Shown here in pieces: positions 26,070 to 41,574 of a stretch of DNA of 64,000 nucleotides. The stretch comes from Hadesarchaea archaeon (GTDB lineage Archaea > Hadarchaeota > Hadarchaeia > Hadarchaeales > WYZ-LMO6). The notes below the pieces were generated by a model. That model did no database searches, had not been told where the DNA came from, and saw nothing but the letters and a program-made list of their open reading frames with translations. The stretch lies in the NCBI GenBank assembly GCA_029259185.1, contig JAPDJF010000014.1, positions 2,148-66,147 of the forward strand, written 5' to 3'. The position numbers and the translations under genes were made by a program. Positions within the stretch are counted from its first letter, which is position 1. Each line of letters opens with the position of its first letter.

Positions 26070-26091
26070 CGACCGTACGAAGCTCGTCGAT

Positions 26092-28101: not shown

Positions 28102-29666
28102 TTTTCCAGTCCCTCGCTCTCCCCCCTCGGCGGGCCTGCGATTTCCTCCTTCGGTTCGCCAGCCTCGCGTGGGGTTGGTTGAGTTCTAGGTTTCCACTTT
28201 TGGACCTCTGTAACAATATCTGGTGTGGCTCCGCCATGCTTCGTTTCGCGCCCCCTCACTCTGATGGGGACGGCGTGGCGCACCGTCTCTCTGCTTCCGG
28301 TAAGCAAACATGTGCCCTGCTCGAATTTGGGTAGCCGTCCTACCAAGTCACGGGGCGCGTCTGCGAAGACTCCTCTGAGAGAATCGAGCTGGTCTGGCTC
28401 CAAGGCGAAGATGAATCGGGTGTTAGTCACGCGAATCACGCGCTGGTCGATGTCCGTCGGAGAGGGGGTGACCAAAATTAAGCAGACACCGTAGTGGCGA
28501 CCGAACCTGATAGTCTCGCGCAGGACGGTCGAAGAGGGCGTGTCTCCGCTCGAGGGCAAGAACATGTGGGCCTCGTCTATCGAGAGCACCAGTGGGGGTA
28601 TGCGGTTGCGCATCCTCAGGCTTAAAAGTTCTCTAGCGATGGCTGCCGCCACGGCGTGTAATTCGCTGTGACCGAGACCCCGGCAATCTATGTTAACGAG
28701 GGCCTTGGGCCTCAAGAGGGAGGGCCAATCGACTCCTTTTCCGATAACGTGAACGTGCCTTAACGCGCTAGCGCGGTCGGAGGCGATGCTGATGGTGTCT
28801 CGTCGAGCGTTGAACTCGGCACCCACTTTTGGGATTTCGTTCACAAGATCGTCGACATCGAAGTCTCCTCGCTTCTTCAGATTTAAGAAGGCTCGTCGTA
28901 CGAGTTGTTCCTGCAGTTCGGTGAGCCAAGGAATCATGCCTATCACTTCGGGCTCGGCGAGGGACGAAAGGCGAATGGTGAGAGTCTTCCCTGGAGTCAG
29001 GTTAATACCGTTTAGCTCTTCCGTCGCCTCTACGGCTTCGCCGTGAATGTCGAGGTTAACTTGGGGTACTCCCAGCGAGACTAGCTCCTCAGCCAAAACG
29101 CCGCGGAGCCAAGATTTCCCGGTACCCGTGGTTCCCACGATGAGGATGTGCCGAGGAAGCACCTCCTTCGGGTTTAGGGATATAGGCAAGTTAGCGCCCC
29201 CCACCAACGTCCCTACACTGAGACCCTTACTAGGACTGACTAAACCAAGAACGTGTGCCACCGTATCTGGTGTAGCCCGATACACGGGCGATCCCGCCGG
29301 AACTAACGTCTGTGGCTCTCTGAGGTTCCAAGAATCTCCTTGCCGAACTAGTTCCTCGAGCAAATCTAGCATAACGAGTCGGAATCTTCGTGGGAGATCC
29401 TCTCGCACGCTCGGACTTTCGAGCCTGAGTAGCTCCCTCATGTGGGAGAGTTCGGCTGCCTCGTATGGGTTAACCTCGCGTCCCCAGACAACCCTGCCAA
29501 CGCTAAGTGAGACACCCTCCTCCCCGACGGCGACGAGCAACTCTCCAGGTCGGGCGAGCTTCCCCGGTCGGAGGGCAACAAGTAAGGATGAAAAAGAGGG
29601 GGTACTCTCATCTGCGACTACCGTTCCCACCCGCTCCGTTAAGTGGGCGAATGACATTCCTCTCAC
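28092..29666 (-). CDS. HerA/FtsK-like (DUF87-type) P-loop ATPase
   Basis: 524 aa. Walker A ILIVGTTGTGKSWL and Walker B LVLSIDEAHMFL. The N-terminal beta-barrel-like region matches the HerA/DUF87 layout. Confidence 0.75.
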   Translation of the reverse strand: MRGMSFAHLTERVGTVVADESTPSFSSLLVALRPGKLARPGELLVAVGEEGVSLSVGRVVWGREVNPYEAAELSHMRELLRLESPSVREDLPRRFRLVMLDLLEELVRQGDSWNLREPQTLVPAGSPVYRATPDTVAHVLGLVSPSKGLSVGTLVGGANLPISLNPKEVLPRHILIVGTTGTGKSWLRGVLAEELVSLGVPQVNLDIHGEAVEATEELNGINLTPGKTLTIRLSSLAEPEVIGMIPWLTELQEQLVRRAFLNLKKRGDFDVDDLVNEIPKVGAEFNARRDTISIASDRASALRHVHVIGKGVDWPSLLRPKALVNIDCRGLGHSELHAVAAAIARELLSLRMRNRIPPLVLSIDEAHMFLPSSGDTPSSTVLRETIRFGRHYGVCLILVTPSPTDIDQRVIRVTNTRFIFALEPDQLDSLRGVFADAPRDLVGRLPKFEQGTCLLTGSRETVRHAVPIRVRGRETKHGGATPDIVTEVQKWKPRTQPTPREAGEPKEEIAGPPRGESEGLEKWL

Positions 29667-29689
29667 GTTAAGGTTGTTGGAGGGTATAT

Positions 29690-30757
29690 TTAAACCTTAC
29701 CTTTTAACAGTTTCATGATACTTTTCGCCAAGGCCTGGGCCAGCGCCACCGGCATGGCGTTCCCTATCTGTCTCGCTACGGACTGAGCCGTGCCTTCGAA
29801 GACAAACGAGTCGGGGAAGGTTTGGAGCCGCGCGGCCTCTCTGGGTGTGATGGCCCTGTCTTGCTCGGGGTGGATGAATCGCCCGCAACTGGGAGCGTTG
29901 AAGCGAGACGTAATCGTGGGAGACGGAGAATTCCAAGACATCCGGCCGTACACGTTCTCCGCGCCCTTATCGAGCCTACGGTGGCACCGGAGCCACAAGT
30001 AACGAGGTAAGCTCCTCCTGCTCCCCCCGTCCCTAGGGACACGACGGACGGTCTCTAAGACACGGGCGGAGTGGTTCGTCGCCACATGGTTGGGTATTGT
30101 GGGGTGAACTTCTCCCGCGTGCAGGGGGGGCAGGTCTCCTATAGCGTCTCTCACGGTTCGCCACTTGGGAAGGGCGAGTTTCCCAGCGCATGTCGGATTC
30201 GCGTGAGTTGGTGGGGGGAGCCAGACCGACTTGACGGTTCTGTCGACCGAGAGCACTATCAGTCTCTTGCGGAACTGGGGGACGCCGTAGTCGGCGGCCT
30301 CTAAGCACCCCCAAGTGGACCGGTAACCCAGTCGTGCCAGTTTTCCCATGTAAAGTGCAAGGTACTGTCTTGTCTTCCGGTGGATCATCCCCGACACGTT
30401 CTCGAAGAGGACGGCCTTGGGCCTGATCTCGCCGACGAGTCGCAAGAGAGTGCGAACCAGACCGTTCCTCGGATCTCGCGCGTACTTAGGTCGAGTCCTC
30501 CGCAGGCTACTGAACCCCTGACAAGGCGGACACCCCACGACGATGTCGATCTCGCCGCGTCGCGCTCCAGCCGCGGTGAGGATGTCGTCGCCACCGATCC
30601 TCCTCGCGTCGGAGCAAATTGGATCGACACCTAGGTTCCGTTTAAACGTGGCGCAGGCGGAGGGATCATTGTCCACGGCCGCCACCACACGGAAGCCCGC
30701 GCGCTCGAGGCCGAGGGACGCGCCGCCGCAACCGCTGAATATGTCGACCGCCAACAT
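29690..30757 (-). CDS. dcm: DNA (cytosine-5)-methyltransferase
   Basis: Motif I VDIFSGCGGASLG. Motif IV GCPPCQGFS. Motif VI AVLFENV. Motif VIII QFRKRLIVL. Motif X GNAMPVALAQAL. The start was moved to the internal ATG (MLAVDIFSG...) because the track begins at a TTG. Confidence 0.9.
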   Translation of the reverse strand: MLAVDIFSGCGGASLGLERAGFRVVAAVDNDPSACATFKRNLGVDPICSDARRIGGDDILTAAGARRGEIDIVVGCPPCQGFSSLRRTRPKYARDPRNGLVRTLLRLVGEIRPKAVLFENVSGMIHRKTRQYLALYMGKLARLGYRSTWGCLEAADYGVPQFRKRLIVLSVDRTVKSVWLPPPTHANPTCAGKLALPKWRTVRDAIGDLPPLHAGEVHPTIPNHVATNHSARVLETVRRVPRDGGSRRSLPRYLWLRCHRRLDKGAENVYGRMSWNSPSPTITSRFNAPSCGRFIHPEQDRAITPREAARLQTFPDSFVFEGTAQSVARQIGNAMPVALAQALAKSIMKLLKGKV

Positions 30758-30760
30758 CTC

Positions 30761-30792
30761 TGACGTCAATTATGACGTCAAAAGTATAAATA
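30761..30792. promoter_or_regulatory. twin TGACGTCA palindromes plus shared TATA element between divergent genes
   Basis: TGACGTCA-ATTA-TGACGTCA lies at 30761-30780. It is followed by TATAAATA at 30785-30792, about 25 bp upstream of the 30807 ATG. On the other strand TTTATA lies about 27 bp upstream of the dcm ATG. Confidence 0.5.
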
Positions 30793-31376: not shown

Positions 31377-34300
31377 ATGAGATTCGATACCGCTTTTTGG
31401 GTGGATCGGTTCAGGGATCTCGGATATCCCTTGAGACATTTGGGTTTGGATGTCGGGTACCTCAGGGGGCAGGGGATCCTGCCTCGCGAACTCGAGGTGT
31501 CCTCGGCCAAGCTCCTCTACAGGGACGACTACGTCGAGGTGGTCGTCCTGGAGCTCGAGCGTCTCGCCCCCAGGGGCCTGTGCAGTCGCGTCGCGAGGGG
31601 GTGGAAGGGCAGGAGGCTCCGCAGGCCGCTCCTGGTCTTCACGGACGGCGTCGACAGCTACGCGGTGATCGTCCCAGGTCCCGGCGTCGGGGGCGAGGTC
31701 AAGGCCCTTAGGCTCCACGGCGAGCTCTACAGGACGGACAGGGAGGTTCTGGAGTCGCTGAGGTTCCCGGGAGACCCGGAGAAGCTGAGGGAGGCCTACG
31801 ACGCCGTCTTCTTCCCCTACGAGAAGGTCAGGGACGAGTTCTTCCAGGGGTACAGGGCACTGTTCGAGCGGATAATCGACTCCGTCAAGAAGCTGCTCGG
31901 GCAGGACGCCCAGTCGTACGCGCAGCGCTTCCTCGGCAGGCTGATGTTCCTGTACTTCCTCCAGAGGAAGGGTTGGCTGAAGGGCGACAGGAAGTTCATC
32001 GATAAGATCGGCGACTTCCGGGAGCTCAATAGGTTGTTCTACGAGAGCCTGAATAAGGAGGACGGCGAGGAGGGGCTGCCGTTTTTGAACGGTTCGCTCT
32101 TCGAGAGGGAGCCGTACATGACCGACAAGATGGAGGCCGGGCTCTTTCCGGTGATGGACCCCATATTCAAGGAGGCTCGGGAGTTCTTCAACCGGTACAA
32201 CTTCACGGTCGACGAGACGTCTCCCATGGAGGTCGAGGTGAGCATAGACCCCCTCCTGCTGGGGACCGTGCTGGAGAACATGCTGCCCGAGCACGAGAGG
32301 GGTGAGCGGGGCACCTTCTACACCCCGGTGGACGAGATAGGATTCATGTGCAGGAGGGCCATCTCGGTTTACCTTGGACTGGGGGACAGGGTGGAAGCCA
32401 AATCGGACAGAGGCACGGAATTCGTGGACGGCCTGTCGGAGTTCGTCGAGCGGCTGAAGCGAGAAAAGAGTGAAGAAAAAGTGAGGGAGTTCAAGGAGAA
32501 ACTGCTCTCACTGAGAGTTCTCGATCCAGCGGTTGGTTCGGGTGGCTTCCTCGTGGTCATGATGCAAACGCTTGTTCAGCTGATTCATGAGGCCGAGGGG
32601 GCGGTCGGGTGGAAGACCGACCCGGAAGAACTCAAAAGGAGAATACTTCCGAACCTCTTCGGGTTTGACATCGAACCTGAGGCCGTCGAGATAGCGAGGC
32701 TCAGGCTGTGGCTTTCCCTCATCATCGACCAGAAGTATCCTCTCCCCCTCCCCAACCTCGACATGAACATCATGGAGATCCACGACGCACTATCAAGGAA
32801 GTGGGGGTACACCACCAAGCTCGACGAGTTAGAGCATCAGGCAAGTCTCAGGGACAAGTTGGAATGGCTCAGGGAAAAGTACCTCACCGAACACGATCCG
32901 AGGAAGAGACAACACCTCCGAAAAGAGATCAATGAGTTGCAGGAGGTGCTGATGGGGAAGATTGATCCGAAAGGAATTCAAATCGAGTTTTACCTCCCAG
33001 AAAGAGCTGCAGATATCGTAGTTATGAACCCGCCCTACGTGAGGCAGGAGAAAGTACCTCTAAAGAAGAAACAGCAGTACATCAACGACTACAGGCTCGA
33101 TAGAACATCCGACTTGTATGCTTACTTTATGGTGAGATCGCTTGAACTCCTTAAGGAGAATGGGGTAGCGGCGATCATTTCGTCCGACAAGTGGCTTGAG
33201 ACGAACTATGGGAGGACGCTCCAAAAGAGGCTCAAGCCCCACTTGGTTGCGGTCTACGGACAACGTCACAGAAGTTTTACGGCGGATGTGAACACCGTAA
33301 TAACCGTCCTAACGAAGAAGCGACGCGACGCAAAAGAGCCTGTGCAGTTCGTCTACTTGGAGTCGTACACAGAGGGTGTTGTCAGGAACTACAAGGCCAT
33401 CAAGAGAGGAGAGCTGACGCCAGGCAAGTGGTACTACTTGAGAGCTCCAAAGATATTCGAAGAGGTTCTCCTGCCAAAGCTAACCCATAGACTAGAGGAG
33501 TTCGCCGAGATAAAGCGGGGTTTCACTACTGGTGCCAACGAGTTCTTCTACCTCAAGGACGTGAGTCACCTCTACGAGGCCGACAGACTGGCGAACCCCA
33601 AGAAGTTCCGGGAGTGGGGGGTAACCGCTAAGAACGAAGGAGCGCTGAGGAGGCAGGGGCTCATCTACGTGGAAAATGAGGGAGGGGAGAGGTTCCTCTT
33701 GGAGAGGGATGCTGTGAGACCGATTCTTAGATCTCCGAGACAGATCCGGAGCTACGGGGTGGAGGAACCCGAGACCCTCTGTTTCTGGGTTCGAGGAAGA
33801 CCAGGGCCCTTCGCCTCTCGCTACATCGAATGGGGGAGGAGGAAGGGATTCTATAAAAGACCAACGTGCAGGGCCAGGGATCCTTGGTACTCCCTCCACG
33901 AGTTCCAGGAGGCCAAGATTTTCCCACCAATGTCTTGGGGAGATGTCATGTACATTTCCTACAGCCCGGAGCCCTACGTTTGTGACGCTCGTTTGTACGG
34001 GCTTTATCCCAAGAAGCCGGGACTTGAGAACACGTTGGCCTGCTACCTGAACTCCACGCTTTTCTTTCTCACTGTTGAACTCTACTGCAGAAGACTGGGT
34101 GGGGGGGCAACTGATATTAAGGTTGAGGACTACGAGCAGATGCCAGTTCCTGACCTAGCAAAAACTAGGATTGATTTTGATTTCTCCAAGTTTGCTAGAG
34201 AACCGTTGAAGTACATGAAGGAAGTGGAGCAGGCGGACAGAAAGGAACTGGACAGGGCTGTGCTTAGGGCGATGGGTTTCAAGGAGAAAGAGCTGGAGGG

Positions 34301-34403
34301 CCTCGTGGACGAGCTTCACCGCGCCTTCGTGGAGGTCGTGGAGGACAGACTGATAAAAGCCGGCAGGCCACTCAAGCAGGGAGAGGAGGCTGCGGAGGAA
34401 TGA
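31377..34403 (+). CDS. large N6-adenine DNA methyltransferase (type IIG/III Mod / PglX-like, gamma-class)
   Basis: 1008 aa. Motif I VLDPAVGSGGFL at about aa 385. Motif IV VVMNPPYV at about aa 555. Long N-terminal (~380 aa) and C-terminal (~450 aa) regions of unknown function. Confidence 0.85.
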   Translation: MRFDTAFWVDRFRDLGYPLRHLGLDVGYLRGQGILPRELEVSSAKLLYRDDYVEVVVLELERLAPRGLCSRVARGWKGRRLRRPLLVFTDGVDSYAVIVPGPGVGGEVKALRLHGELYRTDREVLESLRFPGDPEKLREAYDAVFFPYEKVRDEFFQGYRALFERIIDSVKKLLGQDAQSYAQRFLGRLMFLYFLQRKGWLKGDRKFIDKIGDFRELNRLFYESLNKEDGEEGLPFLNGSLFEREPYMTDKMEAGLFPVMDPIFKEAREFFNRYNFTVDETSPMEVEVSIDPLLLGTVLENMLPEHERGERGTFYTPVDEIGFMCRRAISVYLGLGDRVEAKSDRGTEFVDGLSEFVERLKREKSEEKVREFKEKLLSLRVLDPAVGSGGFLVVMMQTLVQLIHEAEGAVGWKTDPEELKRRILPNLFGFDIEPEAVEIARLRLWLSLIIDQKYPLPLPNLDMNIMEIHDALSRKWGYTTKLDELEHQASLRDKLEWLREKYLTEHDPRKRQHLRKEINELQEVLMGKIDPKGIQIEFYLPERAADIVVMNPPYVRQEKVPLKKKQQYINDYRLDRTSDLYAYFMVRSLELLKENGVAAIISSDKWLETNYGRTLQKRLKPHLVAVYGQRHRSFTADVNTVITVLTKKRRDAKEPVQFVYLESYTEGVVRNYKAIKRGELTPGKWYYLRAPKIFEEVLLPKLTHRLEEFAEIKRGFTTGANEFFYLKDVSHLYEADRLANPKKFREWGVTAKNEGALRRQGLIYVENEGGERFLLERDAVRPILRSPRQIRSYGVEEPETLCFWVRGRPGPFASRYIEWGRRKGFYKRPTCRARDPWYSLHEFQEAKIFPPMSWGDVMYISYSPEPYVCDARLYGLYPKKPGLENTLACYLNSTLFFLTVELYCRRLGGGATDIKVEDYEQMPVPDLAKTRIDFDFSKFAREPLKYMKEVEQADRKELDRAVLRAMGFKEKELEGLVDELHRAFVEVVEDRLIKAGRPLKQGEEAAEE

Positions 34404-37400
34404 CTAGGATCGTGGACAACAAGGGGGAGACCCTCGCGTCCGTCCTGAACAGGGAGTTCTCCGAGGTGAGCGAGGTCGCGATCGCCTCCGCCTACTTCAA
34501 CATCCGGGGGTACGGTGACATAGAGAGAGGGCTCGGGGACAAGCCGATGCGCCTCCTCCTGGGACGCGAGCCAACCGAGAGCGTGAAGTGGGAGGAGGAG
34601 ATACTCCGGGAGCTCGAGGAGAGCGAGGACGACCTGGACTACTTCCTCCTCCTGCAGCGGGCGATAGAGTACTTCCGGAGCGACAGGCGCCAGGTCAGGA
34701 TCATGGGGGGACCCTTCTTCCACGGCAAGGCCTTCATCGGGGTGCATCCGAACACGTTCTCCGTGAGGCGCGGCGTGGGGGTGGTCGGCTCCAGCAACTT
34801 CACCCACGGGGGCCTCGTGGCCAACCGGGAACTCAACATGGTCAACACCGACCGCGAAGTCGTGCGGGAGCTCGCGGGGTGGTTCGAGGAGCAGTGGCTG
34901 AACTCCCGCGACTACAAGGAGGAGTTCCTCTCCATGCTCAGCAACTACGCAATCACGAGGAGTCCGCTGGAGGTCGTGGCGAAGGCCCTCTACGAGACCT
35001 ACAAGGAGAGCCTGGGCGAGAGGAGGGCGGAGATCTTCAAAGGCATGTACCCCCACCAGCAGCTCTCGTACATAAACGCGGTGGAGAAGCTCGAGAGGTA
35101 CGGGGGCGTGCTGATCGCCGACTCGACGGGACTCGGCAAGACCGCGACCGCACTGAACCTGGCCCACACCGCGATGAGGGACGGAAAGAGGGTACTGCTC
35201 GTGGCCCCCAAGAACGTCCTCGAGACCACGTGGAGGGACGAGATGAGGAGAACCCTCGGGACCAGGGAGTTTCTGGAGACCCTCTCCTCCGAGATGCTCT
35301 CCCAGAACCCGGCGTGCGTGGAGGAGTACGCGGGCGAGAACGGCGTCCAGCTCGTGATCGTCGACGAGGCCCACTACTTCAGGAGGCAGTCCACCAACAG
35401 GTACCAGGCCCTCAGGGAGCTGATAACCAAGAACGGTGCATCGGTGGTGCTCATAACGGCCACCCCCGTGAACACGAGCCTCATGGACCTCTACTCCCTC
35501 CTCGCCCTCTACCTCCCCGAAGACTGCGTGCTCGACCTCTGCGGGATGACCCTCAGGGGCTACTTCACCTCCAACCAGGCTAGGTGGCTCAAGGGTGAGC
35601 CCGTGAACATGGACGAGGTGCTGAGGAGGTTCATCGTGAGGCACTCGAGGGAGCTCGCGAGGGCCATGGACAAGGAGGGGAGGATAAGGTTTCCGGAGAG
35701 GGAGCTGGACAAGATCGAGTACCCGGTGGGCGTCGACCTGTGGGCGGTTCACGAGGTGCTGTCCCGGATGAACTTCGCGTTCTACGACCTCTCCGTGGAG
35801 AGGTTCTCCGGCGACCTCAGGATGCCCGACGGAACCCCCCTCTCGAGAGCCGCGAGTGAGGAGCAGGTGGAGAACCTGAAGGATCTCGTCAAGACGATAG
35901 TGGTCATAGGGCTGTTCAAGCGACTCGAGAGCAGCCTGACCGCCTTCAGGGAGTCCCTCCTGCGGACGCGGAGGTACGTGCGAGTCGCGCGCGAGTACGC
36001 CGTGAAGATGCAGTACTTCGTGCCCCCGAGGGTGAAGGGCGACGTGCTGTCCATTCTCGGGGAGGACGATGAGCTGGAGGAGCTGCCCGACCCCGGGGAC
36101 CTCCTCTCCAAGCTGAGGGGGGAGGATGCCTTGGAGAAGTGCAAGCTGGACCGGCGCGATGCCGAGGAGTTCGCGTCGAGGTGCCTGGAGGACGAACGGG
36201 ACATCGACGAGCTGCTGAAGATGCTCCCGAGCGAGGACGAGAAGTACCGCGCGCTTGAGGAGAAGGTCGGGGAGATGCTGGAGAGGGTGAGCGCGGGCGA
36301 ACCGGGCGTGAAGAACGGCATCATAATATTCACCCAGTACGCCGACACCGCGCGCTACCTGTACGAAATGCTCAGGGCGAGGTTCGGCCGCGCCATGCTG
36401 GTGACGGGGGGAGGGGGGTACGGCGGCGACGGTAGGTCGTGCACCGAGGCCGAGGCTGTCAAGGATTTCCAGAGGCACGGTGGGATACTGATCAGCACGG
36501 ATGTCCTGAGCGCGGGGCAGAACCTTCAGAACGCCCAGTTCGTCGTGAACTACGACTTCCCGTGGAACCCCGTGATCCTGATCCAAAGAGCCGGGAGGGT
36601 CGACAGGATAGGTTCGCCCTACGACAGGATATACCTGGTGAACGTGCTCCCCAAGAGGGGCGACCCGGGGGATCGCCAGAGTCTGGAGTACTTCTTGGGG
36701 CTCATGGAGAGGCTCTACAGGAGGCTCGAGATGATCAGGGAGACCGTGGGGATAGACGCCTCGACCTTGGGTGAGGAGGCCGCCCCCAAGGACTTCAGCC
36801 TACAGGCGAGGATCGCGCGCAACGACCGAGGGGTCCTCAGCCTCCTGGAGAAGAAGATCGAGCAGTTCACGAGGGACCCGCTGGACGTGCTGGCCAAGAT
36901 ACTGAGGGAGAAGGGTCTCGAGTGGATCGAGCGGATCCCGACCGGAATAGGGGCCATAAAGCACGGTAAGTTCAACGGCCTGTTCGTGCTCTTCACCGAC
37001 GGGAAGAATCACTACTGGAGGCTCCACGATCACGACGCCAACTCCACGATCACCTCGATTACCGAGATAACCGACATCCTCATGGAGGGGGAGGTGGCGA
37101 ACAGCGGCGAGAAAATCCCCTACGAGTCCCTGATAGGGAAGCTGAAGGGGGCCAAGGATGCGCTGAGGCGGGAGCTGGAGAGGGCGAGCCTGAGGGAGGT
37201 CACGAGGGGGGAGGCCCCGGAGAAAGTGACGAGAACCATCGCGGAGATCTACGATGCCCTGGCCAAAGCGGGCCCCGAGGGGGAGAAGCTCGCCGCGATG
37301 TTCAGGGGGCTGGCCAACCGGAGTACGGTCGTGGAGGGGCTGAAGAGGGCGAAGAGCGAGGGACGGTTGCTCGAGAAGGCGCGGGAGATACTCCCCCCGC

Positions 37401-37486
37401 TCGCGTCCGCGCCACCCCGAGGAGAGAGCGACGAGTCCATCCCGAAGCTGCGCAGGATGTGCTGGTGCCTCATAACGAAATCGTGA
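34400..37486 (+). CDS. PLD-family nuclease domain fused to SNF2/DEAD-like superfamily-2 helicase
   Basis: 1028 aa. The N-terminal PLD region has an HGKAFIG-like HxK motif and GSSNFTHGGL. Helicase motif I ADSTGLGKT, motif II LVIVDEAHYF, motif III LITATPV and motif VI QRAGRVDRIGS. The start overlaps the methyltransferase stop (ATGA). Confidence 0.85.
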   Translation: MTRIVDNKGETLASVLNREFSEVSEVAIASAYFNIRGYGDIERGLGDKPMRLLLGREPTESVKWEEEILRELEESEDDLDYFLLLQRAIEYFRSDRRQVRIMGGPFFHGKAFIGVHPNTFSVRRGVGVVGSSNFTHGGLVANRELNMVNTDREVVRELAGWFEEQWLNSRDYKEEFLSMLSNYAITRSPLEVVAKALYETYKESLGERRAEIFKGMYPHQQLSYINAVEKLERYGGVLIADSTGLGKTATALNLAHTAMRDGKRVLLVAPKNVLETTWRDEMRRTLGTREFLETLSSEMLSQNPACVEEYAGENGVQLVIVDEAHYFRRQSTNRYQALRELITKNGASVVLITATPVNTSLMDLYSLLALYLPEDCVLDLCGMTLRGYFTSNQARWLKGEPVNMDEVLRRFIVRHSRELARAMDKEGRIRFPERELDKIEYPVGVDLWAVHEVLSRMNFAFYDLSVERFSGDLRMPDGTPLSRAASEEQVENLKDLVKTIVVIGLFKRLESSLTAFRESLLRTRRYVRVAREYAVKMQYFVPPRVKGDVLSILGEDDELEELPDPGDLLSKLRGEDALEKCKLDRRDAEEFASRCLEDERDIDELLKMLPSEDEKYRALEEKVGEMLERVSAGEPGVKNGIIIFTQYADTARYLYEMLRARFGRAMLVTGGGGYGGDGRSCTEAEAVKDFQRHGGILISTDVLSAGQNLQNAQFVVNYDFPWNPVILIQRAGRVDRIGSPYDRIYLVNVLPKRGDPGDRQSLEYFLGLMERLYRRLEMIRETVGIDASTLGEEAAPKDFSLQARIARNDRGVLSLLEKKIEQFTRDPLDVLAKILREKGLEWIERIPTGIGAIKHGKFNGLFVLFTDGKNHYWRLHDHDANSTITSITEITDILMEGEVANSGEKIPYESLIGKLKGAKDALRRELERASLREVTRGEAPEKVTRTIAEIYDALAKAGPEGEKLAAMFRGLANRSTVVEGLKRAKSEGRLLEKAREILPPLASAPPRGESDESIPKLRRMCWCLITKS

Positions 37487-38683
37487 GTGATTTTTCTGTT
37501 AGCTGAGAGGGGATTCTTGCCAACTCTGGAGGATGTAAAGAACGAGGAATTGGGAAAGCTGGCGAAGAGGCTGAAGGGGGGCTCGGAGAAGGAGACCCTC
37601 GCCAACATCTTGGAGTGGCAGGAGAGGAATATCATGTGGGCCGCTGATAGGTGGTACACGTACCGTCTGCTCCAGACAATCGTTGCTTTCACAATACTAC
37701 TACTTATAGTTCCTTTCTATTGGATGAATTTGATGAACCCCGTACTGTGCTGGGGAGGTATTTTAGTGGGAATTGTGACTGTGGTGTCTTTAAACCCGGC
37801 TTATCCACTACCTGCACTCACCCCCCTCACGGTCTACGCTATCCTCTGGCTTTCTCTTAACTCTGGGCCGATTATAACCTCGGTCTTAATCCTGTTAGCC
37901 CTCCTCTTGGGAGGCATGATAGTGGTGGTGATCTACCTGTTAATGAAGTATAAGGACTTTTACAGGGAATTCGGGTTTGGGTTTCTTGCCGACCTCTTCC
38001 GCCCCAGCCTGCCCGTGGAGAAGATCCTGAGGTACCGGTTGGGGGTGTGCAGGGACTACGCGAAGCTCACGGCGGCCCTGCTCTTCAACTTGTATCCGGG
38101 TTCTAAGGTCTGTTTCCTTTCTTTGGGAGGGCACGTTGCCGCGGCCACCAGAATTAAGGGTAAGTACTATGTCCTCGATCAGCGGTTGCCAGTTTCAACG
38201 ATAAACAGGTGGTTGATGAGATGGGATAAAAGGAAAGTAAAAGTTATCGTTTCTAAATTGAAGTGGGGTCGAAGAGGAGAAGTAGTCGACGTTGAAAATT
38301 GGAAGAAAAAATATAATGCGAAACGGGAAAAGTCGTCCTCGCTGAACACTAAGGTACTAACGGAAAAAGTTGTAAAGGCACTTAGGACAAAACAGACCCC
38401 GCGGGAATGCTATCCGGACGTTGAGATGCGTCTGAAAAGCTTCGCCCTCTACTACGAGGACGACGGCGTGGTGGAGTACTCGATGGTAAGGGCGATTAAG
38501 AACAGGGTCGAGGGCGAGCTGTGTGGTGACGTTGGCAGGATCTCCAGGCTTGAGGTCTGCAAGGATGGGCGAGACAATAAGGACTTGATCGCGAAGGTTT
38601 GGGTAGGAGACGACTCTATTTCCATAAGCCGGTTTGGTGATGTGACAAAACAAAAGTTTACAAAATGTAGAAATGTTAATTGA
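37487..38683 (+). CDS. polytopic membrane protein with transglutaminase-like cysteine protease domain
   Basis: 398 aa with about 5 TM helices. The segments LGVCRDYAKLTAALLF and GGHVAAATRIKGKYYVLDQ are spaced like a TGase Cys-His-Asp triad. Starts 1 nt after the helicase stop. Confidence 0.55.
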   Translation: MIFLLAERGFLPTLEDVKNEELGKLAKRLKGGSEKETLANILEWQERNIMWAADRWYTYRLLQTIVAFTILLLIVPFYWMNLMNPVLCWGGILVGIVTVVSLNPAYPLPALTPLTVYAILWLSLNSGPIITSVLILLALLLGGMIVVVIYLLMKYKDFYREFGFGFLADLFRPSLPVEKILRYRLGVCRDYAKLTAALLFNLYPGSKVCFLSLGGHVAAATRIKGKYYVLDQRLPVSTINRWLMRWDKRKVKVIVSKLKWGRRGEVVDVENWKKKYNAKREKSSSLNTKVLTEKVVKALRTKQTPRECYPDVEMRLKSFALYYEDDGVVEYSMVRAIKNRVEGELCGDVGRISRLEVCKDGRDNKDLIAKVWVGDDSISISRFGDVTKQKFTKCRNVN

Positions 38684-38700: not shown

Positions 38701-39203
38701 TAAGTTTCTTTAAATTCCTGATGAAACAGTTTTCATACAAATTTTTGAAAAAATTAAATTTGAACACTGGAGCGGATAGCAGTCCGGATTCATTTCCCTG
38801 AATCCAGAAGGGGCGGGTTTCTCCTCCACGAATATCCCCACCCCGATGGACCCTTCTCCCGCGAGGTGCTCAACCGCTTGATCGAACGCCACGCGGGGGT
38901 CCAAACCCACCCTCCTCAGCTACCGGAAGCAAATGCTGGTGTGGGGGCTCATCGAGGGGGCCTCGCACGGAGGGGTCAGATGGGTAAACGGACGGTGAGT
39001 ATCGTCTTGGAGGACGAGCGCGTCTGGGAGGGCTTCTGCAGGCTTGTGGAGGCGAAATACGGCCGGAAGTGGAAGTTCTTGGGGAGGGGCGCGTTGGTCG
39101 CGTGGGATTTGAACCCCACAGTCTTGGCTTTCGCTTGAGGAGCGATTTTATCGTTTTTACCAATTTTAGCAAATCCGATAATTTCCCAGTTGGACCGCCC
39201 GTA

Positions 39204-39757
39204 AGCATTACCCATGTGGGTATTGCTTACCTTTTCGGGGATGTAAGCAATGTTCACGTGAACATCGCTTACATCGTCTTCCCCCTCGGCCGGCCTTCGC
39301 GCGCTCGCAGATCTCGGGACGACCACGCGGAGATCGGGGATGGAAGCATTATTCATGTGAATATTGCTTCCATCGCCTTCCCTCACCCATCACTGTGAAA
39401 AAATCAGATGGGGGGTTTGTGAATTTTACAAATCGTGGTAGGGGGAATAATGGCAACTAAGAGTTTAGTACCGTTCTCTTTCGCCCTAGGCCGGGCCTAG
39501 CGGGCTTCCGGGAAACCCAAGTTCTTCTTTCCAGGTTTTTCCTAGGCCCCCCAAGGGCCTTCTAGGAAGGTGGGGGTCTTGGCCCTCGTGGATCCGGGCC
39601 TTTGGGGTTAGGGGGGAAATTATAAGCATTACTCATGTGAGTATTGCTTATCTTTTCGGATGTAAGCATTGTTCACGTGAACATTGTTACGTCCGGACGT
39701 AACTTATAGAGACGTAGGAGAGACGGAAGCATTGCTCATGTGAACATTGCTTCCATC
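39204..39757. repeat. Array B of the same ~30-bp near-palindromic repeat family, inverted relative to array A
   Basis: Six copies at ~39204-39233, 39243-39272, 39340-39370, 39622-39655, 39659-39690 and 39723-39757. The composite unit 39243-39370 is the reverse complement of the array-A unit. The ORFs 38976-39386 and 39069-39398 are translations of the repeat. Confidence 0.8.
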
Positions 39758-39877
39758 GCCTTCCCCCCGTATCCAAAAAATGTGCAATTTACCAAGATTG
39801 GTAAAATTCACACTACTTGTAGTAAAAGAATAAATCCGGAAGAGTATAACATGACTCAATTGTTTATTGCTAAATTC

Positions 39878-39925
39878 TAATTCTATCCCTTTTAGAAAAC
39901 TAATTCTATCCCTTTTAGAAAAAGT
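39878..39925. repeat. tandem duplication of 24 bp (CTAATTCTATCCCTTTTAGAAAA x2)
   Basis: Exact direct tandem repeat in an AT-rich region. Confidence 0.6.
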
Positions 39926-40176: not shown

Positions 40177-41520
40177 TTAGACACGCTCACAGTCGGGAGA
40201 TGGCCTGCGCACCACGATCCTCCCGCTGTTGAGCTCCCGGACGATCTCCCAGCCCTCGTTCAGGTACCGCACGAGCTCCTCCTCCCCGATGAGCTTGCTC
40301 TCGTACCTCGCGCAGTTTCCGTTGCAGTCTTCCCGGAACCTCGCTGGGGAGATCCTGAGCTTCCTTATTTCTGCCTGGAGGGCCTCGATCTCCTCGCCGA
40401 ACTCCGGCTCGCGCCCAAGTTCCTTCTGCTTCTCGATGCGGACCTTCAGGGGGTCTATTCCAAACGTCTCCGCGACCCTGCGCATCGCCTCGAGCGCCAT
40501 CTCCTCCTTCGAGGGCGCTTTTTCGGACTCAGCAGTCTGGAGGTACTCCTGCGCCCTCCGGTACGCCTCGCGCATGCTCTCCACCACGTCCTCGGGGAGC
40601 CTGCACTTGTTGGTGGTGTACCGCGCCTCGATGTCCCCCTTGTGGCCCATCCAGAAGGTTCGGTAGTCGCGGAGCACGAGCCCCTTGGACTCCGCGAGCA
40701 TGAGCTGGGTGTCGAAGTAGGAGCGCAGCACGTAGGGGCGCCAGGGGAACCCCGCATTCCTGATCGCTGACCTTATCGCGTCGCCCACGTTGGCGGCCGT
40801 GATGAACCCGATCCCCCTAAATCTAGAGGTGATCAGGGGAGACTTGGCGGTGAGCACCTCGCCCCTCCTCATTCGCTCCTCCAGGTAATCCTTTAAGTAC
40901 CCGCACCCCTCCTCGCTCAAAAACGTGAAGTAGCGGTGCCTGGCCTTGCTGAGCTCGCGCCTGACTATTACCATCGCCGGGACTCGCTCGAACTCCACCT
41001 CCCCACCCCTGACCCTGAGTTCGGGCAGGTCCCCGAGCCTCAGCCCGTCGTCCCCCCTGTAGTTGCCAAGGGTCTCGATGCGCAGCCCGGAGTGGGCCAC
41101 GAGCACCGAGGCCGCCCTCGCCTTCTTGTCCCCCGAGAGGAATATGCGTCTCAGCTCTTCCTTGGTGGGAACGCGCTCCTCCGCGAGCGAGGGCGTGTCC
41201 CTGGCCCCCCTTATCTTTATCTTCCCCACGACCGTCCGGTTGTGGTGGGCGAGCCATGACTTCACCGCCTTGAGCGTGGACTCGATGTAGCTCCCCGCCC
41301 TCCCCTTCTCCTCCTCGGCCGAAACGAAGTCGAGCAGTAGGTTGTAGAGCTTCTTCCCCCCCACCCTCCAGAGCTCCTTGGGGGTGAGGCCCACGGACCT
41401 GCAGAAGCTCCCAAGCCTGCGCAGGTAGACGTCCGCCGTGACCTCAGACCCCCTAGCCACGTTCCTGTACCAGCGCTCGACCTCCGGGTCCTCGAGCAGT
41501 TGCCTGTGGGTCCCACGCAT
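40177..41520 (-). CDS. int: tyrosine recombinase / integrase (XerC/D-SSV-like)
   Basis: The C-terminal catalytic domain contains HSGLRIETL, LRSYFDT and WMGHKGDIEARYT (R..K..H..R/H..Y). The start was set at the ATG at 41520. The 55 upstream codons in the track simply read through the tRNA. Confidence 0.85.
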   Translation of the reverse strand: MRGTHRQLLEDPEVERWYRNVARGSEVTADVYLRRLGSFCRSVGLTPKELWRVGGKKLYNLLLDFVSAEEEKGRAGSYIESTLKAVKSWLAHHNRTVVGKIKIRGARDTPSLAEERVPTKEELRRIFLSGDKKARAASVLVAHSGLRIETLGNYRGDDGLRLGDLPELRVRGGEVEFERVPAMVIVRRELSKARHRYFTFLSEEGCGYLKDYLEERMRRGEVLTAKSPLITSRFRGIGFITAANVGDAIRSAIRNAGFPWRPYVLRSYFDTQLMLAESKGLVLRDYRTFWMGHKGDIEARYTTNKCRLPEDVVESMREAYRRAQEYLQTAESEKAPSKEEMALEAMRRVAETFGIDPLKVRIEKQKELGREPEFGEEIEALQAEIRKLRISPARFREDCNGNCARYESKLIGEEELVRYLNEGWEIVRELNSGRIVVRRPSPDCERV

Positions 41521-41542
41521 TCGATGATGGGTAGAGCGGGAT

Positions 41543-41556
41543 TCTATAAAAGCGTT
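41543..41556 (-). promoter_or_regulatory. TATA-box (TTTATAG) for the integrase gene
   Basis: On the minus strand, CTTTTATAGAA lies about 27 bp upstream of the integrase ATG, between the gene and the tRNA. Confidence 0.4.
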
Positions 41557-41574
41557 TCGAACCCAAAATGGTAC

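What the first reader, a model, noticed from the sequence alone, without database searches (positions are those of the whole stretch)
31377..38683. N6-adenine methyltransferase translationally coupled to a PLD-nuclease/SNF2-helicase fusion, followed by a transglutaminase-like membrane protein
A ~1000-aa gamma-class adenine methyltransferase (motif I DPAVGSGGFL, motif IV NPPY) has long uncharacterised N- and C-terminal extensions. Its stop overlaps the start (ATGA) of a 1028-aa protein. That protein's N-terminus has the PLD HxK/GSSNFT nuclease signature and the remainder is a complete SF2 SNF2/DEAD-like helicase (motifs I, II DEAH, III, VI). A Mod-like methyltransferase plus a helicase-nuclease formally resembles type III R-M (Mod/Res). 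The differences are that the nuclease is PLD-type rather than PD-(D/E)xK and that it sits N-terminal to the helicase. The component set (adenine methyltransferase, SNF2 helicase, PLD) also resembles class 1 DISARM, but there is no DrmA/DrmB (DUF1998) core. A polytopic transglutaminase-like membrane protein starts 1 nt after the helicase stop and may be part of the module. The module lies back-to-back with the dcm/HerA-like operon, giving a compact ~12.6-kb defence island.
Basis: partly seen in the sequence, partly recalled or inferred. Interest (0 to 1): 0.8.

Follow-up and report, generated by a model that had tools for sequence, protein, structure and literature searches.

The report
Two-gene archaeal methylase–nuclease-motor restriction module
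Two overlapping genes, a DNA adenine methylase that carries its own exchangeable DNA-recognition domain and a PLD-nuclease/SNF2-motor protein, form a widespread and apparently undescribed two-gene restriction-modification-like defence module of archaea; the neighbouring membrane protein is not part of it.

Summary
A 1008-aa gamma-class N6-adenine methyltransferase (31377-34403) overlaps by ATGA a 1028-aa protein (34400-37486) that has an N-terminal single-HKD PLD nuclease domain and a complete SNF2 ATPase.

The pair is a strictly conserved two-gene module. In every homologous locus with enough flank the methylase lies directly upstream of the PLD-SNF2 gene, usually overlapping it, and no third gene is conserved. 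These loci come from Aigarchaeota, Nitrososphaerota, Bathyarchaeia, Thermoplasmata, Marsarchaeota and Archaeoglobaceae.

The DUF553 membrane protein and the dcm/HerA operon are local neighbours only.

Methylase residues 1-680 co-evolve with the helicase (Mantel rho 0.92). The C-terminal recognition domain does not (rho -0.15) and is swapped between systems, which is typical of restriction specificity.

The methylase folds like MmeI/PglX, but its N-terminal domain has no nuclease triad. The helicase folds like RapA and SauUSI.

The closest characterised relative is MANTIS (BREX-related type 2, Gao_RL). This module lacks its DUF499 ATPase and DUF3780 protein and has a different methylase class. 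It is not Type III, ISP, IIG, BREX or DISARM.

Verdict: new variant of a known kind. Function is inferred, not shown.

The parts
31377..34403 (+). Methyltransferase/specificity subunit gene (1008 aa), gamma-class N6-adenine MTase of the Eco57I/MmeI/PglX lineage
   Evidence: ORF. Pfam Eco57I 8.6e-27, MmeI_Mtase, N6_Mtase. Best PADLOC match is Type IIG REase_MTase, 8e-53. AF2 model pLDDT 83. Foldseek hits: CamA/M.BseCI, BrxX/PglX (TMq 0.44), MmeI (TMq 0.48), BpuSI, DrdV.
31377..31754 (+). N-terminal domain (aa 1-126), family-specific, occupying the position of the nuclease domain of Type IIG/IIL enzymes; no conserved PD-(D/E)xK triad
   Evidence: Confident AF2 alpha/beta fold. In a diverse alignment only F7, R74, Y118, T120 and D121 are invariant. 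A profile search of the PDB found nothing. Only 22 representative clusters among 1.84 billion proteins match, always at a protein N-terminus. Its divergence tracks that of the helicase (rho 0.81).
31755..32426 (+). Helical spacer (aa 127-350) with conserved FLQRKGW and motif X GTFYTP at its end
   Evidence: Long helices in the AF2 model. Aligns to positions 151-551 of PADLOC Type IIG profile PDLC03601. Conserved blocks.
32427..33416 (+). Catalytic MTase domain (aa 351-680): motif I DPAVGSGGFL (32523-32552), motif IV NPPY (33027-33038)
   Evidence: the motifs are invariant in 20 homologues.
33417..34400 (+). C-terminal target-recognition domain (aa 681-1008; M_Eco57I_C), exchangeable between systems
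   Evidence: PF22837 is precomputed for this protein. TRD identity is uncorrelated with helicase identity (rho -0.15, Mantel p 0.83), whereas aa 1-680 give rho 0.92, p 0.0002. Example: L020/L038 helicases are 89% identical but their TRDs only 39%.
33927..34076 (+). Hypervariable patch of the TRD (aa 851-900; beta-hairpin 861-878 in the model), candidate base-reading element
   Evidence: The C. subterraneum paralogues P0124/P0146 are 90-98% identical on both sides of this patch but 30% identical within it. Column entropy is high.
34400..34403 (+). ATGA stop/start overlap of the two genes
   Evidence: Overlaps of 4 to 32 nt are seen in most homologous loci.
34400..37486 (+). Restriction/motor subunit gene (1028 aa): PLD nuclease + SNF2 ATPase + C-terminal domains
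   Evidence: Pfam PLDc_2, SNF2-rel_dom, ResIII, Helicase_C. Best PADLOC match is 'HKD+Snf2' C3a139, 8e-46. AF2 model pLDDT 82. Foldseek hits RapA 5e-17 and SauUSI 2e-15.
34400..34909 (+). PLD (single HKD-type) nuclease domain, aa 1-170; H108/K110 at 34721-34729, GSSNFT at 34787-34804
   Evidence: There is only one HxK...GSxN half-site per chain.
35042..36754 (+). SNF2-type SF2 ATPase core (aa 215-785): motif I 35120-35143, DEAH 35363-35374, TATP 35456-35467, motif VI 36584-36607
   Evidence: PDB sequence hits to RapA, Sulfolobus Rad54-like protein, ISWI and CHD1L.
36755..37483 (+). C-terminal alpha+beta/helical region (aa 786-1028) ending in an invariant R-x-C-W-C strand (CWC at 37460-37468)
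   Evidence: AF2 secondary structure. R1019, C1021, W1022 and C1023 are invariant. Function unknown. The whole-chain alignment to RapA extends through this region.

Best explanation
The two genes encode a self-contained, ATP-dependent restriction-modification-like defence module.

The upstream protein is both the modification and the specificity subunit. It is a gamma-class N6-adenine methyltransferase built like MmeI, PglX or the C-terminal half of a Type ISP enzyme. It reads a DNA site with its own C-terminal TRD and methylates host copies of that site. By analogy with MmeI, PglX, Type ISP and MANTIS, the site is probably short and asymmetric and is marked on one strand.

The downstream protein is the effector. 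It is an SNF2-type double-strand DNA translocase with one PLD half-site at its N-terminus. One chain carries only one HxK...GSxN half-site, so two chains must pair to build one catalytic centre, as in Nuc, BfiI, SauUSI and MtsD.

I propose the following sequence. The methylase bound at an unmethylated site recruits or licenses the motor-nuclease, probably through the methylase's non-TRD part (aa 1-680). ATP-driven movement along the DNA then links distant sites. Cleavage follows, most efficiently between inversely oriented unmodified sites.

Shown here: gene structure, intact motifs, folds, strict two-gene synteny across phyla, co-evolution of methylase aa 1-680 with the helicase, free exchange of the TRD, and mobility of the module.

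Inferred: the physical complex, hemimethylation, translocation, dimer-dependent cleavage and anti-virus activity.
For: 1. Conserved gene pair.
- The methylase lies immediately upstream of the PLD-SNF2 gene in all 20 genome loci with enough flank.
- The same holds in 3 further loci reached from helicase homologues and in 2 of 3 reached from methylase homologues.
- The genes usually overlap by 4-32 nt.
- All-against-all clustering of flanking ORFs finds no other conserved gene.

2. Catalytic integrity.
- The PLD His/Lys/GSSN motifs, all SNF2 motifs and methylase motifs X, I and IV are invariant.

3. Folds.
- The methylase resembles MmeI (TMq 0.48), BrxX/PglX, BpuSI, DrdV and CamA.
- The effector resembles RapA and the PLD-helicase restriction enzyme SauUSI.

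4. Specificity behaviour typical of R-M systems.
- TRD identity is decoupled from the rest of the system. Mantel rho is -0.15 for the TRD and 0.92 for methylase aa 1-680 against the helicase.
- A swapped 50-residue cassette lies inside otherwise 90-98% identical paralogues in one genome.
- Two genomes carry two copies each: C. subterraneum and one MAG (L006 and L021).

5. Mobility and defence context.
- In the window the helicase gene and the first 900 nt of the methylase gene have GC3 of 0.83-0.94, against about 0.6 for host genes.
- An integrase-like gene (p502) lies nearby.
- In L032 the module sits beside GmrSD and a phage integrase.
- In L013 an OLD-family nuclease gene is inserted between the two genes.
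- An orphan methylase of the family sits on a PolB/DUF3987 contig, likely a mobile element (L036). This is the usual anti-restriction pattern.

6. Precedent.
- In MANTIS an HKD-SF2 effector (MtsD) is a dimer with one composite PLD site. It restricts unmethylated DNA specified by a hemimethylating MTase and prefers inverted sites (bioRxiv 10.64898/2026.09.23.753747).
Against: - There is no experimental result for any member. No methylome, recognition site, complex or cleavage has been shown.
- Even for the related MtsD, nuclease activity has not been reconstituted in vitro.
- The canonical Asp of the HKD motif is replaced by Gly/Ala. This is compatible with PLD nucleases, but that point rests on my own recollection and was not tested here.
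- The co-evolution signal shows shared history of methylase aa 1-680 and the helicase. It does not prove physical contact.
- MANTIS needs an AAA+ loader, so an unlinked helper cannot be excluded. The loci sampled extend only 8-9 kb either side.
- Nearly all loci come from metagenome bins.
Confidence: 0.68

Rival explanations
1. It is an incomplete or degenerate BREX-related, MANTIS or DISARM system. On this view the methylase and the PLD-SNF2 protein work only together with further components (a DUF499/BrxC-type AAA+ ATPase, DUF3780, PglZ or DrmA/DrmB) that are encoded elsewhere or have been lost, and the pair alone is inactive.
For: - The HKD-Swi2/Snf2 effector architecture is the hallmark of BR type-2/MANTIS (PMC12839542; bioRxiv 10.64898/2026.09.23.753747).
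- The proteins give weak hits to DrmD, PglX, DrmMI and the 'phospholipD_antiphage' model.
- In MANTIS the methylase cannot load on DNA without MtsA.
Against: - No DUF499, DUF3780, PglZ, BrxC or DrmA/B is present in the 64-kb window.
- None is present within 8-9 kb of more than 20 homologous loci from several phyla. A remnant would not be conserved as an intact, overlapping pair with invariant catalytic motifs.
- The methylase is gamma-class with its own TRD, like autonomous MmeI. MtsC is alpha-class.
- All NCBIfam scores are far below the family cut-offs.
Confidence: 0.12
2. It is a modification-dependent (Type IV, SauUSI-like) or otherwise methylase-independent nuclease-motor, and the neighbouring methylase serves another purpose such as epigenetic regulation or protection from a different enzyme.
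For: - The fold resembles SauUSI, a PLD-SF2 Type IV enzyme.
- The effector has a conserved C-terminal region of unknown function that could be a reader domain.
Against: - Strict adjacency, gene overlap and co-evolution with the methylase (rho 0.92) are not expected for unrelated functions.
- The effector's C-terminal region is conserved rather than variable, and no SRA, EVE or other reader domain is detected.
- A Type IV enzyme encoded next to an active adenine methylase would be self-toxic if it read m6A.
Confidence: 0.06
3. It has a non-defence housekeeping role. On this view it is an epigenetic mark plus an SNF2 remodeller acting in transcription recycling (RapA-like), replication or repair, and the PLD domain is a DNA-binding or processing accessory.
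For: - RapA is the best structural and sequence match of the ATPase.
- The family is widespread in archaea.
Against: - Distribution is patchy, with multiple copies per genome and decayed copies (L029 with many frameshifts; split methylases in L006 and L015).
- The window copy has foreign codon composition, and integrases and other defence genes lie nearby.
- TRD swapping and invariant nuclease residues point to defence, not housekeeping.
Confidence: 0.05
4. One reading: a three-gene module that includes the DUF553 transglutaminase-like membrane protein, or a single 12.6-kb defence island acting together with the dcm/HerA operon.
For: - The DUF553 ORF starts 1 nt after the helicase stop, on the same strand.
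- The dcm/HerA operon is divergently transcribed from a shared 607-bp intergenic region.
Against: - No DUF553, dcm, HerA or p669 homologue lies next to the pair in any other locus.
- DUF553 has GC3 of 0.62, against 0.91 for the helicase gene.
- The dcm-Mig-HerA-p669 set recurs in L035 without the pair.
Confidence: 0.04

Closest known systems
MANTIS / Gao_RL / BREX-related (BR) type-2 system (MtsA-D)
   Same: - The effector has the same order of domains: an N-terminal HKD/PLD nuclease followed by a Swi2/Snf2-type SF2 ATPase.
- An adenine methylase provides both self-marking and target specificity.
- The logic is R-M-like.
- It is also found in archaea (PMC12839542; bioRxiv 10.64898/2026.09.23.753747).
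   Different: - There is no DUF499 AAA+ ATPase (MtsA) and no DUF3780 protein (MtsB).
- The methylase is gamma-class of the Eco57I/MmeI type with a C-terminal TRD, not the alpha-class MtsC/COG1743 type.
- The module has two genes instead of four.
- The NF042964 score is 130 bits against a cut-off of 1100.
Type ISP restriction-modification enzymes (LlaGI, LlaBIII)
   Same: - The same functional parts occur in the same order: nuclease, SF2 motor, then helical coupler, gamma N6A methylase and C-terminal TRD.
- A comparable mechanism is expected: hemimethylation of an asymmetric site, translocation, and cleavage on convergence.
   Different: - The parts are split over two polypeptides.
- The nuclease is PLD, not Mrr/PD-(D/E)xK.
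- The motor is SNF2/RapA-like.
- The methylase has an extra family-specific N-terminal domain.
Type IIL/IIG enzymes (MmeI, BpuSI, DrdV, Eco57I)
   Same: - The overall methylase polypeptide architecture and fold match: an N-terminal domain, a helical spacer, a gamma methylase and a TRD.
- The best PADLOC and Pfam matches are to this group.
   Different: - The N-terminal domain lacks the conserved D...(D/E)xK triad.
- Cleavage is delegated to a separate ATP-dependent PLD-SNF2 protein.
- Automatic tools would probably mislabel the methylase as a Type IIG enzyme or as PglX. P0160, for example, is named BREX-1 PglX.
Type III restriction-modification (EcoP15I Mod/Res)
   Same: - It is a two-gene operon with the methylase first and the helicase-nuclease second.
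- The methylase supplies specificity.
- It is ATP-dependent.
   Different: - Mod is beta-class with a central TRD, and Res has the helicase first and a C-terminal PD-(D/E)xK nuclease.
- Here the methylase is gamma-class, the nuclease is an N-terminal PLD domain, and the motor is SNF2.
SauUSI (Type IV ATP-dependent PLD-helicase endonuclease)
   Same: - The N-terminal PLD plus SF2 ATPase architecture is shared, with a Foldseek E-value of 2e-15.
- SauUSI has a dimeric composite PLD site. For the protein here this is an inference only.
   Different: - SauUSI is a single protein with an SRA-like reader, and it attacks methylated DNA.
- Here there is no reader domain, and the protein has an obligate methylase partner.
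Class 1 DISARM (DrmD, DrmMI, DrmA, DrmB, DrmC)
   Same: The component set overlaps: an SNF2 helicase, an Eco57I-type adenine methylase and a PLD nuclease.
   Different: - The DrmA/DrmB (DUF1998) core is absent.
- PLD and SNF2 are fused in one protein.
- The DrmD score is 146 bits against a cut-off of 610.
[not shown]
   Same: It is another R-M system in which a PLD nuclease depends on an SF2 translocating ATPase (PMC5861437, PMC5737866; abstracts seen).
   Different: - The nuclease and motor are on separate proteins.
- Recognition is by the R subunit, not by the methylase.
- The methylase is a C5 enzyme (this detail is from my own recollection).

Membership tests
MANTIS / BR type-2 (Gao_RL) | DUF499 AAA+ ATPase (MtsA) in the operon | tested here: not met
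   No DUF499 or HmaC hit among the neighbours or any large ORF of the window. No conserved third gene in more than 20 homologous loci.
MANTIS / BR type-2 (Gao_RL) | Small DUF3780 protein (MtsB) in the operon | tested here: not met
   No such Pfam family appears in the called genes of the window locus or of the other loci.
MANTIS / BR type-2 (Gao_RL) | Alpha-class N6A methylase (motif I, central TRD, then DPPY; COG1743 type) | tested here: not met
   The motif order is X-I-IV with a C-terminal TRD, of the Eco57I/MmeI family. MtsC is described.
MANTIS / BR type-2 (Gao_RL) | Effector with an N-terminal HKD nuclease fused to a Swi2/Snf2 helicase | tested here: met
   The architecture is confirmed. 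The NCBIfam equivalog NF042964, however, scores 130 bits against a cut-off of 1100.
Type III R-M | Beta-class Mod methylase with a central TRD | tested here: not met
   Gamma motif order; Pfam Eco57I/MmeI_Mtase.
Type III R-M | Res subunit: SF2 helicase followed by a C-terminal PD-(D/E)xK nuclease | tested here: not met
   The nuclease is PLD and N-terminal, and the ATPase is SNF2-type.
Type III R-M | Two-gene mod-res operon in which the methylase provides specificity | tested here: inconclusive
   Gene number and order match. That the methylase gives specificity is inferred from the TRD, not demonstrated.
Type ISP R-M | Single polypeptide carrying nuclease, helicase, methylase and TRD | tested here: not met
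   There are two separate ORFs with stop and start codons in the window and in all homologous loci.
Type ISP R-M | Mrr-like PD-(D/E)xK nuclease | tested here: not met
   A PLD domain is present instead.
Type IIG/IIL (MmeI, Eco57I) | N-terminal PD-(D/E)xK nuclease with a conserved catalytic triad in the same chain as the methylase | tested here: not met
   No conserved D...(D/E)xK. Only F7, R74, Y118, T120 and D121 are invariant. The Type IIG profile match starts after the nuclease part (profile positions 151-551).
Type IIG/IIL (MmeI, Eco57I) | Helical spacer, gamma N6A methylase and C-terminal TRD | tested here: met
   Pfam/PADLOC matches and Foldseek hits to MmeI, BpuSI and DrdV.
BREX | PglZ phosphatase and BrxC/PglY ATPase in the locus | tested here: not met
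   Both are absent from the window and from the homologous loci.
BREX | PglX methylase at family level | tested here: not met
   NCBIfam PglX models score 76-78 bits against cut-offs of 500-900. The fold is related.
DISARM class 1 | DrmA helicase and DrmB (DUF1998) core | tested here: not met
   Neither is present in the window or in the homologous loci.
DISARM class 1 | DrmD SNF2 helicase at family level | tested here: not met
   NF038317 scores 146.5 bits against a cut-off of 610.
PLD-family nucleases (Nuc, BfiI, SauUSI type) | Conserved HxK and GSxN catalytic residues, one half-site per chain that needs dimerisation | tested here: inconclusive
   The residues are invariant and there is a single half-site per chain. 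Dimerisation and activity cannot be tested with these tools.

The most novel reading that the evidence does not exclude
The pair defines its own class of ATP-dependent restriction-modification system, found mainly in archaea. It can be described as a split Type ISP with a PLD nuclease, or equivalently as a loader-free minimal MANTIS.

In this reading a self-sufficient MmeI/PglX-like methylase-TRD subunit directly licenses a single-HKD SNF2 motor-nuclease. The active site forms only when two motors meet. Specificity is reprogrammed in nature by swapping TRD cassettes while the methylase core and the motor co-evolve as a unit.
Probability: 0.4. Interest if true: 0.7.

Novelty: new variant of a known kind. 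Interest (0 to 1): 0.6.

Why it matters
1. Annotation. Current pipelines label the methylase 'Type IIG', 'type II methylase subunit' or 'BREX PglX' and the partner 'helicase-related protein'. A common archaeal defence module is therefore invisible in defence censuses. The searches returned more than 1200 helicase and more than 1700 methylase relatives at E<=1e-10, and the best 120 listed for each are near-full-length at 44% identity or more.

2. A simpler experimental model. How methylation-based systems with PLD-helicase effectors (MANTIS, BREX relatives) couple site recognition to cleavage is unresolved, and MtsD cleavage has not been reconstituted. A two-protein version from thermophiles, whose methylase brings its own TRD, would be a much simpler system for biochemistry and structure.

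3. Specificity engineering. The natural TRD exchange documented here gives ready-made chimeras for testing how specificity is read. An example is the L020/L038 pair, with 89% identical motors and 39% identical TRDs.

Tried and rejected
- DUF553 as a third component: rejected. No homologue lies near the pair in any other locus, and its GC3 is host-like.
- dcm/HerA operon as part of the module: rejected. It is conserved on its own in L035.
- N-terminal methylase domain as an inactivated or active PD-(D/E)xK nuclease:
  - The secondary-structure order is compatible with that fold.
  - No triad is conserved.
  - A profile search of PDB sequences found nothing.
  - A scan of 1.84 billion proteins found the domain only in this family.
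  - The fold assignment is left open.
- Search for a conserved third gene: clustering of ORFs of 80 aa or more gave none. tblastx of the 700 nt upstream and 900 nt downstream found only a small Zn-ribbon ORF upstream in 3 loci.
- att-like direct repeats around the island: only chance-level short repeats were found.
- Rfam scan of 30.5-42.5 kb: nothing meaningful.
- Viral contigs: only distant Eco57I-type methylases without the N-terminal domain, and no PLD-SNF2 relatives.
- Literature: five full-text searches, plus reading of the BREX-diversity, MANTIS, Hma, EVE, HEPN, MORC and type III CRISPR-accessory papers. None describes a two-gene Eco57I/MmeI-type methylase plus HKD-SNF2 system. The library is incomplete and REBASE could not be consulted.

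Full report
**1. The observation.**

- 31377-34403 (+, 1008 aa)
- 34400-37486 (+, 1028 aa)
- 37487-38683 (+, 398 aa, GTG start; other gene callers start it at 37517)

The first two overlap in ATGA.

The first protein has motif X GTFYTP (aa 312-317), motif I DPAVGSGGFL (383-392) and motif IV NPPY (551-554). This is the gamma order. It hits Pfam Eco57I, MmeI_Mtase and N6_Mtase.

The second protein has H108-G-K110 and G130-SSNFT, matching Pfam PLDc_2. It also has helicase motifs I (DSTGLGKT), II (DEAH), III (TATP) and VI (QRAGRVDR), matching SNF2-rel_dom, ResIII and Helicase_C.

In 20 homologues of 46-62% identity the PLD His, Lys and GSS-T residues and all ATPase motifs are invariant. The only departure from the textbook HKD motif is Gly/Ala where the Asp would be.

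The third ORF is a DUF553 transglutaminase-like protein with hydrophobic segments.

**2. What belongs together.**

The window is a metagenome-assembled archaeal contig. The closest relatives of both proteins come from Aigarchaeota (Caldarchaeum) and Nitrososphaerota. Others come from Bathyarchaeia, Hadesarchaea, Thermoplasmata, Marsarchaeota, Parvarchaeum, Tardisphaera and Archaeoglobaceae, with a few from bacterial bins.

Both families are large. The searches returned 1227 helicase and 1752 methylase relatives at E<=1e-10. The best 120 listed for each are near-full-length at 44% identity or more.

Synteny results:
- I fetched 26 genome loci around helicase homologues and searched them with all nine proteins of the window's island. 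The methylase lies directly upstream of the PLD-SNF2 gene in every locus that has enough upstream sequence.
- All-against-all clustering of every ORF of 80 aa or more in these loci gave only two real conserved clusters, the helicase (27 loci including the window) and the methylase (20 loci). The remaining clusters are antisense shadow ORFs inside these two genes.
- Pfam-annotated contexts of three more helicase homologues and of two of three methylase homologues show the same overlapping pair and no DUF499, DUF3780, PglZ, BrxC or DrmA/B.
- The rest of the window has no such gene either.

DUF553, dcm, HerA and the 669-aa protein never accompany the pair elsewhere.

Codon composition separates the genes further. 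GC3 is 0.91 along the whole helicase gene. It is 0.83-0.93 for the first 900 nt of the methylase gene and 0.61-0.76 for the rest. It is 0.62 for DUF553 and about 0.6 for the housekeeping neighbours.

The module is therefore two genes. It looks recently acquired here, and the methylase gene is itself a recombinant.

**3. Anatomy of the methylase.**

AlphaFold2 on a 20-sequence alignment gave mean pLDDT 83. Foldseek against the PDB returns:
- CamA and M.BseCI (methylase plus C-terminal DNA-reading domain)
- BrxX/PglX (TMq 0.44)
- MmeI (TMq 0.48, the best overall coverage)
- BpuSI and DrdV

The best PADLOC model is a Type IIG enzyme, but the match begins at profile position 151, after that family's nuclease domain.

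The layout is:
- N-terminal domain, aa 1-126
- helical spacer, aa 127-350
- catalytic domain, aa 351-680
- TRD, aa 681-1008 (Pfam M_Eco57I_C)

The N-terminal domain is confidently folded, with the order alpha-beta-alpha-beta-beta-alpha-beta-beta-beta-alpha. It has no conserved D...(D/E)xK. Across diverse members only F7, R74, Y118, T120 and D121 are invariant. A profile of it finds nothing in the PDB. A full scan of 1.84 billion representative proteins finds it only at the N-terminus of this family (22 clusters). Distant Eco57I-type methylases on viral contigs lack it.

**4. Anatomy of the effector.**

The AlphaFold2 model has mean pLDDT 82. It shows:
- a PLD domain, aa 1-170
- a helical linker
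- two RecA lobes with SNF2-type helical insertions, aa about 215-785
- a C-terminal alpha+beta/helical region

The chain ends in a strand with invariant R1019, C1021, W1022 and C1023.

The best structural matches are RapA (5e-17) and the PLD-helicase restriction enzyme SauUSI (2e-15). The eukaryotic SNF2 remodellers and ZorD follow.

The best PADLOC model is 'HKD+Snf2' (C3a139). This is an uncharacterised family noted next to type III CRISPR loci. DrmD, BrxH, DpdE, HmaA and the Gao_RL PLD-helicase follow at lower scores. Every NCBIfam score is far below its cut-off.

**5. Evidence on function from evolution.**

On 18 loci with both genes intact I compared pairwise identities:
- Helicase identity against methylase aa 1-680: Spearman 0.92, Mantel p = 0.0002.
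- Helicase identity against the TRD (aa 681-1000): rho = -0.15, p = 0.83.
- L020 and L038 have helicases 89% identical but TRDs 39% identical.
- L018 and L019 have helicases 46% identical but TRDs 84% identical.

The two paralogous methylases of C. subterraneum are 90-98% identical on both sides of a 50-residue patch (aa 851-900) that is only 30% identical. In the model this patch is a beta-hairpin.

This is what is expected if the TRD reads DNA sequence and is exchanged to change specificity, while the rest of the methylase works with the motor-nuclease.

Further signs of a defence and mobile lifestyle:
- Two copies occur in one genome, seen twice.
- Decayed copies exist: L029 with many frameshifts, and split methylases in L006 and L015.
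- An OLD-family nuclease gene is inserted between the two genes in L013.
- GmrSD, NYN, an integrase and a Schlafen-type helicase lie next to the pair in L032.
- A weakly integrase-like gene (phrog_1, 1.7e-5) with the same foreign GC3 lies in the window, and its homologue is next to the pair in L011.
- An orphan family methylase sits on a 9.7-kb contig with PolB, DUF3987 and an RFC-like ATPase. This is probably a mobile element protecting itself (L036).

**6. Most likely mechanism.**

Shown:
- a conserved, overlapping methylase/motor-nuclease pair with intact catalytic motifs
- a methylase that carries its own exchangeable TRD
- a motor-nuclease with a single PLD half-site

Inferred:
- The methylase marks host sites. 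It is probably hemimethylation of a short asymmetric site, as in MmeI, PglX, Type ISP and MANTIS.
- At unmodified sites the methylase recruits or licenses the PLD-SNF2 protein through its non-TRD part.
- The SNF2 ATPase moves on double-stranded DNA.
- Two PLD half-sites pair to form one active centre, as in Nuc, BfiI, SauUSI and MtsD.
- Cleavage then follows, most efficiently between inverted unmodified sites. That preference would also solve the post-replication hemimethylation problem.

The precedent is the MANTIS study. There MtsD is a dimer with one composite PLD site. Restriction needs the methylase for targeting, and inverted sites are preferred.

I put about 0.68 on 'autonomous two-gene ATP-dependent R-M-like defence with methylase-borne specificity'. 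I put roughly 0.4 on the specific model of dimerisation or convergence at inverted sites.

**7. Comparison with known systems.**

- *BR type-2/MANTIS.* It works most like this system (PMC12839542; bioRxiv 10.64898/2026.09.23.753747) and like a split Type ISP enzyme. It is not a member of BR type-2/MANTIS. DUF499 and DUF3780 are absent, and the methylase is gamma-class rather than the alpha-class MtsC/COG1743 type.
- *Type III.* Not a member. The methylase class is wrong, and the nuclease family and its position are wrong.
- *Type ISP.* Not a member. There are two polypeptides, and the nuclease is PLD rather than Mrr.
- *Type IIG/IIL.* Not a member. There is no nuclease triad in the methylase chain.
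- *BREX.* Not a member. There is no PglZ or BrxC.
- *DISARM.* Not a member. There is no DrmA/B.

Neither the BREX-diversity paper nor the MANTIS paper mentions an Eco57I/MmeI-type methylase paired with an HKD-SNF2 protein. I found no other description in the searchable library. The library is incomplete and REBASE could not be checked.

**8. Verdict.**

The pair is an R-M-like module, but the membrane protein and the dcm/HerA operon are unrelated neighbours.
- The module is a new variant of a known kind. All its parts are known, but this two-gene combination, the family-specific N-terminal domain and the clean separation between a co-evolving core and a swappable TRD are not described.
- Interest is moderate to high for restriction-modification and defence specialists (0.6). 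It offers a minimal model for PLD-helicase effectors and corrects a systematic mis-annotation in archaeal genomes.
- Nothing about its activity has been shown experimentally.

Noticed in passing
window 25446-30769 (- strand); L035 1034-6444: The divergent operon holds four genes: dcm (C5 methylase), a HerA-like ATPase, a 669-aa protein and a MutY/Nth-family glycosylase. The 669-aa protein has an N-terminal winged helix and motifs 'GTDAS' and 'FRDGRIFP' that remind me of NurA; Pfam NurA does not hit, so this rests on memory. The glycosylase matches a PADLOC 'Type II nicking endonuclease' model at 2e-42 and is probably a T:G mismatch repair partner of dcm. The same four genes, in a different order and at 51-65% identity, occur on metagenome contig Ga0315312_1002450 without the methylase/PLD-SNF2 pair. 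This may be a separate HerA-based restriction-like system.
   Followed up: partly
window 40177-41685 (-); L011 2389-3735: A 502-aa ORF (447 aa per the gene callers) has no Pfam, PADLOC, NCBIfam or PDB hit. It has a weak PHROG integrase match (phrog_1, 1.7e-5) and a foreign GC3 of 0.85, similar to the helicase gene. A 53%-identical homologue lies just upstream of the methylase in a Bathyarchaeia locus. It may be the recombinase of the element that carries the module.
   Followed up: partly
window 39201-39755 and 39877-39922: The non-coding stretch between DUF553 and the integrase-like gene holds six copies of a ~30-bp palindrome (consensus GTAAGCAnTgnTCAyGTGArCAnTGCTTAC). Next to it is an AT-rich segment with a perfect tandem 23-mer (CTAATTCTATCCCTTTTAGAAAA x2). 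This resembles protein-binding iterons or origin boxes of a mobile element. There is no Rfam match.
   Followed up: partly
window 31377-34403: The methylase gene is compositionally mosaic. GC3 is 0.83-0.93 over the first ~900 nt, like the helicase gene at ~0.9, and then 0.61-0.76. This suggests a recombination breakpoint near aa 300. In L031, L032 and L034 the last ~600 nt of the methylase gene (TRD) has lower GC3 than the rest.
   Followed up: partly
L013 5989-8004: An OLD-family nuclease gene (ABC ATPase plus TOPRIM, 671 aa) is inserted between the methylase and the PLD-SNF2 gene and overlaps the latter's start. L028 has an OLD-like ABC ATPase upstream on the other strand. This recalls the 'backup effectors' described for BREX-related systems.
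   Followed up: partly
L026 4801-4983; L032 5744-5953; L020 upstream of the methylase: A small (60-69 aa) protein with two CxxC pairs, a Zn-ribbon, is encoded directly upstream of the methylase in three loci, overlapping the methylase start in L026. It could be a controller-type regulator. It is not present in the window.
   Followed up: no
L036 (9.7-kb contig JBMFIU010000016.1) 1648-4644: An orphan methylase of this family (55% identical, with the N-terminal domain) has no helicase partner. It sits on a contig with family-B DNA polymerase, DUF3987 and an RFC-like AAA ATPase. This is probably a virus or plasmid carrying the methylase as anti-restriction.
   Followed up: no
window 37454-37468 (helicase aa 1019-1023): The invariant R-x-C-W-C motif lies in the very last, confidently modelled beta-strand of the PLD-SNF2 protein. 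These are the only invariant cysteines in the protein. Their role is unknown; interface or redox are possibilities.
   Followed up: no
L029 (Thermogymnomonas acidicola JCM 13583), L006, L015, L030: Decayed or variant copies exist. In the T. acidicola isolate both genes are broken into many fragments. The methylase alone is interrupted in L006 (in-frame stop) and in L015 (frameshift; complete genome CP117708.1), while the sister strain (L014) is intact. A bacterial locus (L030) has a distant methylase followed by an SNF2 protein without a PLD domain.
   Followed up: no
window 52949-53995 (+): A 348-aa ATPase ORF matches the PADLOC MADS component mad3 (4e-32), with weaker matches to AriA and mad8. 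It lies far from the module and has no obvious defence neighbours. It is probably a generic ATPase.
   Followed up: no
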